A stretch of 64,000 bases of DNA, from the NCBI RefSeq assembly GCF_057098645.1, contig NZ_CM169472.1; one strand, 5' to 3'. Position numbers: made by a program. This document shows, piece after piece, positions 24,001-27,000 of the stretch (its first letter is position 1; the number at the start of each line of letters is the position of its first letter).

Positions 24001-27000
24001 TCTGTCATGACTAAACACTATGATTACATCGCCATCGGCGGCGGCAGCGGCGGTATCGCCTCCATCAACCGCGCGGCTATGTACGGTCAGAAATGCGCGC
24101 TGATTGAAGCCAAAGAGCTGGGCGGCACCTGCGTGAACGTCGGCTGCGTACCGAAGAAAGTGATGTGGCACGCGGCGCAAATCCGTGAAGCGATCCATAT
24201 GTACGGCCCGGATTATGGTTTTGATACCACTATCAATAAATTCAACTGGGAAACGTTGATCGCCAGCCGTACCGCCTATATCGACCGTATTCATACTTCC
24301 TATGAAAACGTGCTCGGTAAAAATAACGTTGATGTAATCAAAGGCTTTGCCCGCTTCGTTGATGCCAAAACGCTGGAAGTTAATGGCGAAACCATCACAG
24401 CCGATCATATTCTGATCGCCACCGGCGGTCGTCCGAGCCACCCGGATATTCCGGGCGTGGAATACGGTATTGATTCTGATGGTTTCTTTGCCCTTCCTGC
24501 TTTGCCAGAGCGTGTGGCGGTTGTTGGCGCGGGTTACATCGCCGTTGAGCTGGCTGGCGTGATTAACGGCCTCGGCGCGAAAACGCATCTGTTTGTGCGT
24601 AAACATGCGCCGCTGCGCAGCTTCGACCCGATGATCTCTGAAACGCTGGTCGAAGTGATGAACGCCGAAGGCCCGCAGTTGCACACCAACGCCATCCCGA
24701 AAGCGGTAGTGAAAAATGCCGATGGTAGCCTGACGCTGGAGCTGGAAGATGGTCGCAGTGAAACGGTGGATTGCCTGATTTGGGCGATTGGTCGCGAGCC
24801 TGCCAATGACAACATCAACCTGGAAGCCGCTGGCGTTAAAACCAACGAAAAAGGCTATATCGTCGTCGATAAATATCAAAACACCAACATTGAAGGTATT
24901 TACGCGGTGGGCGATAACACGGGTGCAGTAGAACTGACACCGGTGGCAGTTGCAGCGGGTCGCCGTCTCTCTGAACGCCTGTTTAATAACAAACCGGATG
25001 AGCATCTGGATTACAGCAACATTCCGACCGTGGTCTTCAGCCATCCGCCGATTGGTACTGTTGGTTTAACGGAACTGCAGGCGCGCGAGCAGTACGGCGA
25101 CGATCAGGTGAAAGTGTATAAATCCTCTTTCACCGCGATGTATACCGCCGTCACCACTCACCGCCAGCCGTGCCGCATGAAGCTGGTGTGCGTTGGGCCG
25201 GAAGAGAAGATTGTCGGTATTCACGGCATTGGTTTTGGTATGGACGAAATGTTGCAGGGCTTCGCGGTGGCGCTGAAGATGGGGGCAACCAAAAAAGACT
25301 TCGACAATACCGTCGCCATTCACCCAACGGCGGCAGAAGAGTTCGTGACCATGCGTTAAATGTTAAAGGGCTAAGAGTAGTGTGCTCTTAGCCCTTAATT
25401 ACGTTTCCGCTATCAGTTCAGAAGCTGAAGCAGAAAGCGGATCAGTTCCAACAGCGCAATTAACGCCCCAAGAACGATGATTGCTTTATCAATCACCCGT
25501 TTTCTCCATACGATGGAGTGAGAATGCATCCGCTTACTCATCCATTGCCTGTCACGGCGCATGCCCTATTGTTAGATAATGGCATTCTCACTCCGGCCAG
25601 AGCATCAGTTAACGGCACCACCCGTACCACTGATCAGGACTTTGAAAGCGTTTATGCGCATTGCCAGAGTGAAAATGCCTCAGAGCTAACTGGATAATCA
25701 TACAGTATATTCAGGTTATAAAACCAGCATGTCCTTGCAATAGTTTCAGTATGGTATTAGCATTGATGCGTTAGATGATGGCATTCTCACTCCAGCCAGA
25801 GCCACCAACTCTGGGCTGAAGAGTAAAAAAACCGACGCGAAGTCGGTTTTTTTACGTCCGGATTCGGACAAGGCTTGGTACGGCAGCGACCCGATGAAAG
25901 TATATAAATCCTCTTTCACCAACATGTATAGCAAACTGTCCCTTCTCCAGCTGAAGAAATCGCTAACGCTTGCAATGTTAGCCACTGGCTAATAGTATTG
26001 AACCGTTAGATGTGGGCATTCTCACTCCGGCCAGAGCCACCAACTCAGGGCTGGAAAGTAAAAAACCGACGCAAAGTCGGTTTTTTTACGTCCTGATTCA
26101 GACCTCCTTTCAAATGAATAGCCAACTCAAAATTCACACCTATTACCTTCCTCTGCACATACGCATTCGTTAAACCATATATGCTTTTGACTTATCCGCT
26201 TTGGTTTGTAACGCTGGTGGCGCTGGCGCTACGTCTCTCTTTCACTTTGTAATGAGATAATGATATGAGCAACATTACCATTTATCACAACCCGGCCTGC
26301 GGCACGTCGCGTAATACGCTGGAGATGATCCGCAACAGCGGCACAGAACCGACCATTATCCATTATCTGGAAACTCCGCCAACGCGCGATGAACTGGTCA
26401 AACTCATTGCCGATATGGGGATTTCCGTACGCGCGCTGCTGCGTAAAAACGTCGAGCCGTATGAGGAGCTGGGCCTTGCGGAAGATAAATATACTGACGA
26501 TCGGTTAATCGACTTTATGCTTCAGCACCCGATTCTGATTAATCGCCCGATTGTGGTGACGACGCTGGGAACTCGTCTGTGCCGCCCTTCAGAAGTCGTG
26601 CTGGAAATTCTGCCAGATGCGCAAAAAGGCTCATTCTCCAAGGAAGATGGCGAGAAAGTGGTTGATGAAGCGGGTAATCGCCTGAAATAAAGCGGCTATA
26701 TCCCCCCCACAGGTTGTTAGAAAAGTGCGCTTTATTTATGTCGGATGCGACGCTGGCGCGTCTTATCCGACCTACAAAGTTATGAAAATTCGATGAATAG
26801 TATGTTATTTGTAGGCCTGACAGGCGTAGCGCATCAGGCGATTTTGCTATTTACACATTACTCCCTGCGTGAGATTCCAATTATCGCGTCCAGCATGGTG
26901 TATCAGTGAGCTGCTTAGTTATCCGCGATACAGTGCAGCAGTTTAAAGACGTACTGGATTATGATTTATCAGTGCTTTACACAACAAATTATTCAATAAT

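What the first reader, a model, noticed from the sequence alone, without database searches (positions are those of the whole stretch)
25360..26090. Complete dinQ / agrA / agrB type I toxin-antitoxin locus with LexA box
A 27 aa GTG-initiated ORF on the minus strand (25413-25496) translates exactly to the DinQ membrane peptide as I recall it. Two ~83 nt direct repeats on the plus strand (about 25771-25853 and 26006-26087), each ending in a strong intrinsic terminator, share a 23 nt block (ggcattctcactccggccagagc) that also occurs at 25574-25600 inside the dinQ transcribed region, so they are antisense to the dinQ mRNA. A CTG-N10-CAG LexA-like site lies at 25690-25705. The ORF track misses all of this because the elements are short.
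Basis: partly seen in the sequence, partly recalled or inferred. Interest (0 to 1): 0.35.

Follow-up and report, generated by a model that had tools for sequence, protein, structure and literature searches.

The report
Known dinQ–agrA–agrB toxin–antitoxin locus
This is the well-studied E. coli DNA-damage-inducible DinQ membrane-toxin gene with its two small antisense RNA genes, complete and intact, so the finding is correct but ordinary; the one twist is that in this strain both antisense RNAs, not just one, are predicted to bind the toxin mRNA well.

Summary
Window 25360-26090 is the gor–dinQ–agrA–agrB intergenic locus of E. coli, 100% identical to O145:H28 genomes. RefSeq annotates dinQ at exactly 25413-25496 (minus strand). 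The 27-aa peptide is identical to K-12 DinQ and passes NCBIfam toxin_DinQ. Rfam AgrB (RF02891) hits 25771-25855 (91 bits) and 26006-26089 (106 bits). The 20-bp LexA operator (25688-25707) is identical to the K-12 operator. A 33-nt block occurs three times as a direct repeat: 25571-25603 in the dinQ 5' UTR, and at the 5' ends of agrA and agrB. Both sRNAs are therefore antisense to dinQ +88..+120.

There is one small correction. The exact 23-mer lies at 25581-25603, not 25574-25600, and the agrA copy has one mismatch.

All published regulatory elements are present: sequences 1-4, SD hairpin and +44 site.

Two differences from K-12 are worth recording:
- The variable 9-nt block of the repeat carries different alleles. 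As a result AgrA and AgrB are predicted to pair equally well with dinQ (-58.1 and -58.5 kcal/mol). In K-12 the values are -42.7 and -58.2.
- arsR and arsB are deleted, so arsC directly follows agrB.

Interest is low.

The parts
25366..25396 (.). Stem-loop between the convergent genes gor and dinQ; the dinQ (and presumably gor) terminator
   Evidence: 12-nt perfect inverted repeat 25366-25377/25385-25396 and a terminator-like call with a 14-pair stem. Identical to K-12. PMC3567139 places the dinQ terminator just downstream of the gor stop codon.
25360..25690 (-). dinQ primary (+1) transcript, about 331 nt (inferred by transferring K-12 numbering: GUG = G195, so +1 = 25690)
   Evidence: Numbering from PMC5066626 applied to an ungapped alignment with K-12. 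There are 15 substitutions against K-12 and none changes the peptide.
25413..25496 (-). dinQ coding sequence: 27 aa, GTG start, single transmembrane toxin peptide
   Evidence: RefSeq annotation.
25504..25524 (-). Shine-Dalgarno GGAG (25504-25507) and sequence elements 4 (25504-25509) and 3 (25513-25524), which form the closed SD hairpin
   Evidence: Coordinates transferred from PMC5066626. The MFE of the window +1 RNA pairs 173-178 with 182-187. The only substitution against K-12 (25510) lies in the hairpin loop.
25571..25603 (-). Agr target site in the dinQ 5' UTR (+88..+120), containing sequence element 2 (25585-25597); the first copy of the 33-nt direct repeat
   Evidence: published target G88-A119.
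25647..25647 (-). Position equivalent to the +44 processing site that activates translation in K-12
   Evidence: Transferred by numbering from PMC5066626 and PMC3567139. Not tested here.
25663..25679 (-). Sequence element 1 (U16-C28 = 25663-25675), extended in this allele to G12 (25679). It pairs with element 2 to lock the +1 mRNA.
   Evidence: The MFE of the window +1 RNA shows 17 continuous pairs, G12-C28 with G94-C110. The 1:2 duplex is -37.2 kcal/mol against -30.4 in K-12.
25688..25707 (.). LexA operator (core CTG-N10-CAG at 25690-25705) overlapping the dinQ -10 hexamer TATGAT (25697-25702, minus strand) and the +1 position
   Evidence: The 20-mer is identical to K-12. Operator HI 4.83 is reported in PMC3567139. 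The -10 was read directly from the sequence.
25735..25763 (+). agrA promoter: -35 TTGCAA (25735-25740), 17-nt spacer, -10 TAGCAT (25758-25763), 7 nt before the +1 at 25771
   Evidence: Read from the sequence and identical to K-12. Below the threshold of the consensus scan (8 of 12 matches).
25771..25853 (+). agrA small RNA gene (83 nt): single-stranded antisense 5' part, internal hairpin, terminator hairpin plus U7
   Evidence: Rfam RF02891, 91.1 bits. Aligned to K-12 agrA b4712. Fold z-score -4.55. Duplex with dinQ -58.1 kcal/mol.
25970..25998 (+). agrB promoter: -35 TTGCAA (25970-25975), 17-nt spacer, -10 TAGTAT (25993-25998), 7 nt before the +1 at 26006
   Evidence: Read from the sequence; both hexamers are identical to K-12.
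26006..26087 (+). agrB small RNA gene (82 nt), the antitoxin of K-12
   Evidence: Rfam RF02891, 106.2 bits. Aligned to K-12 agrB b4713. Fold z-score -4.71. Duplex with dinQ -58.5 kcal/mol.

Best explanation
This is the chromosomal dinQ–agrAB type I toxin–antitoxin locus of E. coli, here in an O145:H28-type genome, and it is complete.

The mechanism is taken from K-12 experiments and inferred here by orthology.
- LexA binds the operator at 25688-25707, which overlaps the dinQ -10 hexamer and transcription start. dinQ is therefore transcribed from the minus strand only after DNA damage.
- The primary 331-nt mRNA is translationally inert. Element 1 (about +12..+28) pairs with element 2 (+94..+110), which leaves elements 3 and 4 free to close a hairpin over the GGAG Shine-Dalgarno sequence.
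- Removal of the first 43 nt gives the +44 form, in which element 2 pairs with element 3. This opens the SD, and the 27-aa DinQ peptide is made from a GUG start. DinQ inserts in the inner membrane, depolarises it and lowers ATP.
- The divergently and constitutively transcribed Agr sRNAs pair through their 5' ~33 nt with dinQ +88..+120. Pairing sequesters element 2, which re-closes the SD hairpin and creates an RNase III substrate.

One step is specific to this strain and rests on inference from sequence and thermodynamic prediction only. The polymorphic 9-nt block of the repeat is AATGGCATT in dinQ, GATGGCATT in agrA and GTGGGCATT in agrB. Both AgrA and AgrB are therefore predicted to be competent antisense partners. 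In K-12 only AgrB is.
For: Identity of the locus:
- 100% match to O145:H28 chromosomes in which dinQ is annotated at these coordinates.
- Colinear with K-12 gor-dinQ-agrA-agrB.
- DinQ is identical to the K-12 peptide and passes NF041472.
- Two RF02891 hits at 91 and 106 bits.

Regulatory parts:
- The LexA 20-mer and the Agr promoter hexamers are identical to K-12.
- Elements 1-4, the SD and the GUG start are at the published positions.
- The MFE of the window +1 RNA reproduces the published 1:2 duplex plus closed SD hairpin. The MFE of the +44 RNA reproduces the 2:3 duplex.

Antisense pairing:
- 30/34 and 29/34 Watson-Crick pairs, with duplex energies of -58.1 (AgrA) and -58.5 (AgrB) kcal/mol. 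In K-12 the values are -58.2 (AgrB) and -42.7 (AgrA).
- Cofold net gains are -29.0 and -32.2 kcal/mol.

Covariation:
- Across 17 target/Agr pairs from E. coli, other Escherichia, Hafnia, Leminorella and Citrobacter, 12 of 33 intermolecular pairs show compensatory changes.
- 96.6% of cells are paired, against 34-39% when the register is slid.

The experimental basis of the mechanism in K-12 is PMC3567139 and PMC5066626.
Against: - Nothing was measured in this strain: no transcript, LexA-binding or toxicity data.
- The generic promoter/terminator scan did not call the Agr promoters or terminators. They match the consensus in only 8 of 12 positions, and their stems are largely A-U.
- Cofold MFEs did not reproduce the closed SD hairpin after Agr binding, for either the window or the K-12 sequences. 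That step rests on the published SHAPE and translation data, not on my prediction.
- In the window +44 MFE the SD is paired to +89..+92 rather than free.
- Window AgrB is predicted to fold nt 7-20 into a small 5' hairpin, which could slow its binding.
- The covariation could partly reflect gene conversion among homologous repeats rather than selection for pairing. In addition, in loci with two agr copies I chose the better-pairing copy.
Confidence: 0.93

Rival explanations
1. The locus is the same, but as in K-12 only AgrB is a working antitoxin and AgrA is a non-functional paralogue. This rivals only the strain-specific sub-claim, not the identity of the locus.
For: - In K-12 only agrB deletion gives UV sensitivity, and agrA is described as partly degenerated (PMC3567139; PMC8594479).
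- Window AgrB pairs perfectly over nt 10-32 (23 contiguous bp), whereas AgrA keeps the A·C mismatch at nt 24.
- The cofold gain is slightly larger for AgrB: -32.2 against -29.0 kcal/mol.
Against: - The reason given for AgrA's inactivity in K-12 is poor complementarity (25/31 nt). That does not hold here: complementarity is 30/34 WC plus 1 G·U, and the duplex energy of -58.1 kcal/mol equals that of K-12 AgrB.
- AgrA's single-stranded 5' tail (nt 1-20) pairs without interruption, while AgrB has a 2-nt internal loop at nt 8-9 and a predicted self-hairpin over nt 7-20.
- The agrA promoter hexamers are identical to K-12, where agrA is expressed.
Confidence: 0.35
2. The locus is a decaying remnant in this strain, as it is in some other E. 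coli lineages, and is no longer expressed or toxic.
For: - Many E. coli genomes carry truncated versions. There are single-agr forms, and forms in which the dinQ target repeat is fused to the 3' half of an agr. The latter have lost the dinQ promoter, the LexA box and the agr promoters (L011-L016).
- The neighbouring arsR-arsB genes are deleted in the window.
Against: - All parts are intact in the window: peptide, SD, elements 1-4, operator, -10 hexamer, both agr promoters and both terminators.
- The arsRB deletion junction (about 26203-26207) lies more than 110 nt downstream of the agrB terminator and does not touch the locus.
Confidence: 0.04
3. The two 83-nt units are merely duplicated intergenic terminator or REP-like repeats, and their match to the dinQ region is incidental.
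For: Their 3' halves are palindromic terminator-like hairpins that also give weak spurious Rfam hits on the opposite strand and to unrelated families (29.7, 29.6 and 24.2 bits, all below threshold).
Against: - Full-length RF02891 matches at 91 and 106 bits.
- Promoters at a fixed distance, with hexamers identical to K-12.
- The K-12 orthologues have mapped 5' ends and Northern signals.
- The 18-nt core occurs 3 times against 0.02 expected.
- There are compensatory changes between target and sRNA across genera.
Confidence: 0.01

Closest known systems
dinQ–agrA–agrB locus of E. coli K-12 MG1655 (b4613, b4712, b4713; Weel-Sneve et al. 2013, Kristiansen et al. 2016)
   Same: This is the orthologous locus. 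The position next to gor, the DinQ peptide, the LexA operator 20-mer, the Agr promoter hexamers, the terminators, the spacing (dinQ target to agrA = 199 nt) and the four 5'-UTR switch elements are all the same.
   Different: - The polymorphic block of the repeat differs. In dinQ it is AAGAACTCT in K-12 and AATGGCATT here. In agrB it is AAGAACTCT in K-12 and GTGGGCATT here. In agrA it is GATGGCTAT in K-12 and GATGGCATT here.
- As a result both sRNAs pair at about -58 kcal/mol here, against -58.2 (AgrB) and -42.7 (AgrA) in K-12.
- The new dinQ allele also lengthens the intramolecular 1:2 duplex (13 to 17 bp; -30.4 to -37.2 kcal/mol) and the 2:3 duplex (-20.3 to -25.7 kcal/mol).
- There is a 4-nt indel and several substitutions in the agrA-agrB spacer.
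- arsR and arsB are deleted downstream.
tisB–istR-1 (SOS-induced type I TA of E. coli)
   Same: Both have a LexA-repressed toxin gene. In both, an inert primary mRNA is activated by 5' processing (+42 in tisB, +44 in dinQ), a divergent trans-encoded sRNA pairs far upstream of the RBS, RNase III cleaves the duplex, and the product is a small inner-membrane depolarising peptide (PMC5066626).
   Different: The sequences are unrelated. tisB uses a ribosome standby site, whereas dinQ uses an SD-hairpin switch. tisB has no tandem pair of antitoxin paralogues.
dql (dinQ-like) loci of Enterobacteriaceae chromosomes and plasmids (Kristiansen et al. 2016; T1TAdb DinQ/AgrB family)
   Same: The architecture is the same: the 5' UTR carries a copy of the sRNA's 5' block, with an Agr-like sRNA about 180-230 nt away. 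I saw it here in Hafnia, Leminorella and Citrobacter.
   Different: Those loci encode diverged peptides and carry different variable blocks. The window locus is true dinQ, not a dql paralogue.

Membership tests
DinQ/AgrB type I toxin-antitoxin family | Small hydrophobic toxin peptide of the DinQ family | tested here: met
   The 27-aa peptide is identical to K-12 DinQ. NCBIfam NF041472 (equivalog) scores 54 bits against a cutoff of 30. RefSeq lists it as WP_001295215.1.
DinQ/AgrB type I toxin-antitoxin family | Agr-type antisense sRNA gene(s) (Rfam RF02891), with own promoter and rho-independent terminator, divergent from and not overlapping the toxin gene | tested here: met
   Two full-length RF02891 hits at 91.1 and 106.2 bits, gathering score 40. 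The promoter hexamers are identical to K-12. Terminator hairpins are present.
DinQ/AgrB type I toxin-antitoxin family | About 31-34 nt of complementarity between the sRNA 5' end and the toxin 5' UTR (+88..+119), upstream of the RBS | tested here: met
   AgrA has 30/34 WC pairs plus 1 G·U. AgrB has 29/34 plus 1 G·U. Duplex energies are -58.1 and -58.5 kcal/mol. Intermolecular covariation is seen across loci.
DinQ/AgrB type I toxin-antitoxin family | LexA operator overlapping the dinQ promoter (SOS control) | tested here: met
   The 20-mer 25688-25707 is identical to the K-12 operator, published HI 4.83. It overlaps the -10 TATGAT and the +1. LexA binding itself cannot be tested with these tools.
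DinQ/AgrB type I toxin-antitoxin family | Four 5'-UTR elements giving mutually exclusive 1:2, 2:3 and 3:4 pairings that gate the SD | tested here: met
   All four elements are at the published positions. The MFE folds of the window +1 and +44 RNAs show the 1:2 plus 3:4 state and the 2:3 state respectively.
DinQ/AgrB type I toxin-antitoxin family | Agr binding re-closes the SD hairpin | tested here: inconclusive
   Cofold MFEs formed the 40-42 bp intermolecular duplex but did not show the 3:4 hairpin, for either the window or the K-12 sequences.
DinQ/AgrB type I toxin-antitoxin family | Toxin toxicity, neutralisation by the sRNA, +44 processing and RNase III cleavage | not testable with these tools
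   Known only from K-12 experiments (PMC3567139, PMC5066626).
Chromosomal dinQ orthologue (as opposed to a dql paralogue) | Location in the gor–ars intergenic region | tested here: met
   gorA ends at 25359, dinQ is at 25413-25496 and arsC starts at 26265. arsR and arsB are missing through a deletion shared with other lineages.

The most novel reading that the evidence does not exclude
In this lineage AgrA is not a degenerate by-stander but a full-strength second antitoxin, possibly the kinetically better one.

More generally, the three direct copies of the 33-nt block (the dinQ target, agrA and agrB) appear to exchange a 9-nt 'specificity' segment by gene conversion. Which sRNA is the cognate antitoxin then flips between E. 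coli lineages:
- AgrB in K-12, APEC102026, Z0117EC0051 and JSWP006.
- AgrA in KBN10P04869, strain 142, NMBU-W13E19, E69 and O157:H7.
- Both in O145:H28 and in E. whittamii.

Recombination between the same repeats would also generate the single-agr variants and the promoterless dinQ remnants. I found no paper describing this.
Probability: 0.45. Interest if true: 0.35.

Novelty: already known. Interest (0 to 1): 0.15.

Why it matters
As a locus it adds nothing new. dinQ/agrAB has been characterised genetically and structurally in K-12, dinQ is annotated in the matching RefSeq genomes, and AgrB is an Rfam family.

It has two practical uses:
- agrA and agrB are not annotated in the O145 RefSeq record, so the coordinates given here fill that gap.
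- The allele comparison suggests that the K-12 rule 'AgrB is the antitoxin, AgrA is inert' does not transfer to all E. coli. This matters for anyone deleting or interpreting these sRNAs in EHEC or other lineages. It also offers a natural set of specificity variants for studying how trans-acting type I antitoxins keep pace with their targets.

Tried and rejected
- **Generic promoter/terminator scan.** It found neither the Agr promoters nor the Agr terminators, only the gor/dinQ stem-loop. This reflects its thresholds: the hexamers match 8 of 12 positions and the stems are A-U-rich. I did not count it as evidence against.
- **CTG-N10-CAG as a statistic.** There are 28 matches in the window, so the bare pattern is uninformative. 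I relied instead on identity to the K-12 operator.
- **Weak Rfam hits.** These were AgrB on the reverse strand at 25823-25913, Spy779816, and naRNA4 at 26739-26771. All are below the gathering score. The first two come from the palindromic terminator and the third from a REP-like palindrome, so I rejected them.
- **Cofolding of +44 dinQ with Agr.** I used it to test SD re-closure. The MFE did not show the 3:4 hairpin even for K-12, so the approach is not informative.
- **Second, weaker LexA operator (HI 13.82 in PMC3567139).** I could not locate it with certainty, because the figure is not held and I had no HI matrix. The window differs from K-12 at 25708, 25711 and 25730 in that promoter region.
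- **Identity bands from whole-locus BLAST.** They give only rough genotype counts, because they include partial matches. I did not attempt a full census of joint dinQ/agrA/agrB genotypes.
- **Cross-species scan.** About 40 of the 57 hits were chance matches in unrelated phyla and were ignored.
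Full report
**What is there**

The window between gorA (24007-25359, +) and arsC (26265-26690, +) was read on both strands. A megablast of 25300-26300 against all complete E. coli genomes gives 100% identity over the full length to O145:H28 chromosomes such as NZ_CP028379.1. In those records a CDS 'dinQ, damage-inducible type I toxin DinQ' (WP_001295215.1) is annotated at exactly window 25413-25496 on the minus strand.

The ORF starts with GTG and encodes (M)IDKAIIVLGALIALLELIRFLLQLLN. 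This is identical to K-12 DinQ. It matches the NCBIfam equivalog model NF041472 toxin_DinQ at 54 bits, cutoff 30.

**The two repeats**

The repeat finder reports the tandem duplication (25755-25830 / 25990-26065 at 87% identity, and 25826-25869 / 26060-26103 at 93%). It also reports a three-copy 33-nt family at 25571-25603, 25770-25802 and 26005-26037.

Rfam RF02891 (AgrB, 'ArsR-gor region gene B') matches 26006-26089 at 106.2 bits and 25771-25855 at 91.1 bits. Both matches are full length; the gathering score is 40.

I aligned the window to K-12 MG1655, where agrA (b4712) and agrB (b4713) are annotated as ncRNAs.

Upstream of each lies TTGCAA-17 nt-TAGCAT (agrA) or TTGCAA-17 nt-TAGTAT (agrB), 7 nt before the start. 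The hexamers are identical to K-12.

Each RNA folds into an open 5' segment, an internal hairpin and a terminator hairpin followed by U7. The fold z-scores are -4.55 and -4.71.

The 18-nt core of the shared block occurs three times in 64 kb at up to 3 mismatches, against 0.02 expected. The agrA copy has one mismatch.

**The LexA site**

CTGGATAATCATACAG is at 25690-25705. The bare pattern is common, with 28 matches in the window. What matters is that the 20-mer 25688-25707 is identical to the K-12 dinQ operator, published with a heterology index of 4.83 (PMC3567139).

Using the published numbering (GUG = G195; PMC5066626) and the ungapped alignment, dinQ +1 falls at 25690. The operator therefore covers the -10 hexamer TATGAT (25697-25702, minus strand) and the start site.

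**Mechanism**

The K-12 work shows the following:
- The +1 mRNA is inert.
- Removal of 43 nt gives a translatable +44 form.
- AgrB pairs with G88-A119, re-closes the SD hairpin and triggers RNase III cleavage.
- DinQ is a 27-aa inner-membrane peptide that depolarises the membrane and lowers ATP.

All the sequence elements exist in the window at the equivalent positions:
- element 1: 25663-25675
- element 2: 25585-25597
- element 3: 25513-25524
- element 4 and SD: 25504-25509

The window dinQ RNA has 15 substitutions against K-12 and none alters the peptide. Its +1 MFE structure has the 1:2 duplex (17 continuous pairs) and the closed SD hairpin. Its +44 MFE has the 2:3 duplex. This matches the published model.

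The step 'Agr binding closes the SD hairpin' was not reproduced by cofold, for either strain. That step rests on the published SHAPE data.

**What differs from K-12**

The differences cluster in a 9-nt block of the repeat (Agr nt 7-15, dinQ about +105..+113).

| Element | K-12 | Window |
|---|---|---|
| dinQ target | AAGAACTCT | AATGGCATT |
| agrB | AAGAACTCT | GTGGGCATT |
| agrA | GATGGCTAT | GATGGCATT |

Predicted duplex energies of the Agr 5' 40 nt with dinQ +81..+125:

| dinQ allele | AgrA (kcal/mol) | AgrB (kcal/mol) |
|---|---|---|
| Window | -58.1 | -58.5 |
| K-12 | -42.7 | -58.2 |

Net cofold gains are -29.0 (AgrA) and -32.2 (AgrB) for the window, against -22.9 and -37.1 for K-12. The published reason for AgrA's inactivity is degenerate complementarity, and that does not apply here.

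The same dinQ allele also strengthens the intramolecular 1:2 duplex (-37.2 against -30.4 kcal/mol) and the 2:3 duplex (-25.7 against -20.3).

**Population and cross-species context**

I sampled 16 E. coli genomes across the identity spectrum. I also ran one pattern scan of species-representative genomes.

Every intact locus has at least one Agr pairing at about -51 to -66 kcal/mol. In two-copy loci the other copy is usually at about -41 to -46. Which copy is the good one varies:
- AgrB in K-12, Z0117EC0051, APEC102026 and JSWP006.
- AgrA in strain 142, KBN10P04869, NMBU-W13E19, E69 and (weakly) O157:H7.
- Both in the window and in E. whittamii.

E. albertii and Escherichia sp. E1V33 have a single agr at the agrA position. 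E1V33 carries the same dinQ and agrA block alleles as the window.

Across 17 target/Agr pairs, including Hafnia, Leminorella and Citrobacter, 12 of the 33 intermolecular pairs show changes on both sides. 96.6% of cells are paired, against 34-39% in slid registers. Two caveats apply: I picked the better copy in two-copy loci, and gene conversion between homologous repeats can mimic selection for pairing.

Rough counts of genomes at least 99% identical over the locus are 26 for the window type, 375 for the KBN type and 626 for the K-12 type. These identity bands include partial matches.

I found no paper describing this switching.

**Verdict**

The locus is already known and already annotated for dinQ. 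agrA and agrB are not annotated in the O145 RefSeq record but are in K-12 and in Rfam. Interest is low. The only mildly new point is the predicted dual-cognate AgrA/AgrB genotype and the lineage-dependent choice of cognate sRNA.

Noticed in passing
window 26090-26270 (junction about 26203-26207): arsR and nearly all of arsB are deleted. The sequence follows the K-12 arsR promoter region up to ...GACTTATCCGCTT and then jumps to the last ~60 nt of arsB; the small ORF 26181-26252 is the ArsB C-terminus. An intact arsC follows at 26265-26690. The same junction occurs in B2-like strains (L013-L016), so this is a shared old deletion allele and not a new event. arsC would now sit behind the ars promoter without its repressor.
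   Followed up: partly
L015 1414-1660 and L016 1414-1660 (E. coli 25POL and ATCC BAA-2469); about 8 of 60 evenly spaced rows: In these genomes the dinQ target repeat is fused directly to the 3' half and terminator of an agr gene. The dinQ promoter, the LexA box, the first ~87 nt of the mRNA and both agr promoters are therefore gone, while RefSeq still annotates the dinQ ORF. This looks like a deletion by recombination between the direct repeats, leaving a promoterless remnant.
   Followed up: partly
L011 and L012 (E. coli UMB200201_11 and O111:H8), L013 and L014: These are single-agr variants of the locus, with about 235 nt missing between the agrA and agrB repeats. In UMB200201_11 and O111:H8 the remaining agr carries the block AATGGCATT, identical to the dinQ target.
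   Followed up: partly
L010 825-998, L013 1225-1398, L006 1076-1291; equivalent to window about 25518-25697 (+) and about 25770-25985: Some RefSeq records annotate 'hypothetical protein' CDSs on the plus strand, inside the dinQ 5' UTR or promoter region or across agrA. These are almost certainly spurious calls over non-coding regulatory RNA sequence.
   Followed up: no
window 25663-25690 versus 25771-25798: The 5' end of the dinQ mRNA itself (GUUAGCUCUGAGGCAUUUUCACUCUGGC) resembles the 5' end of the Agr RNAs (UUAGAUGAUGGCAUUCUCACUCCAGCC). The cis 'lock' element 1 therefore looks like a fourth, diverged copy of the same repeat. This fits the published idea that AgrB substitutes for element 1.
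   Followed up: no
window 26739-26771: A REP-like G+C-rich palindrome lies downstream of arsC. It gives a partial naRNA4 (RF02564) match at 31 bits, below the gathering score of 59.5.
   Followed up: no
window 30098-39050: The chu/shu heme-uptake cluster (chuS, chuA, shuT, hutW, hutX, chuY, shuU and an ATPase gene) lies between dctR and yhiD, inside the acid-fitness island (slp ... hdeBAD, gadE, mdtEF, gadWX). A HicAB type II TA pair lies at 2873-3504.
   Followed up: no
window 27317-28540: The yhiS-like gene downstream of arsC is marked as a frameshifted pseudogene in RefSeq (27317-28433). The ORF listing, however, shows an uninterrupted 407-aa ORF at 27317-28540.
   Followed up: no
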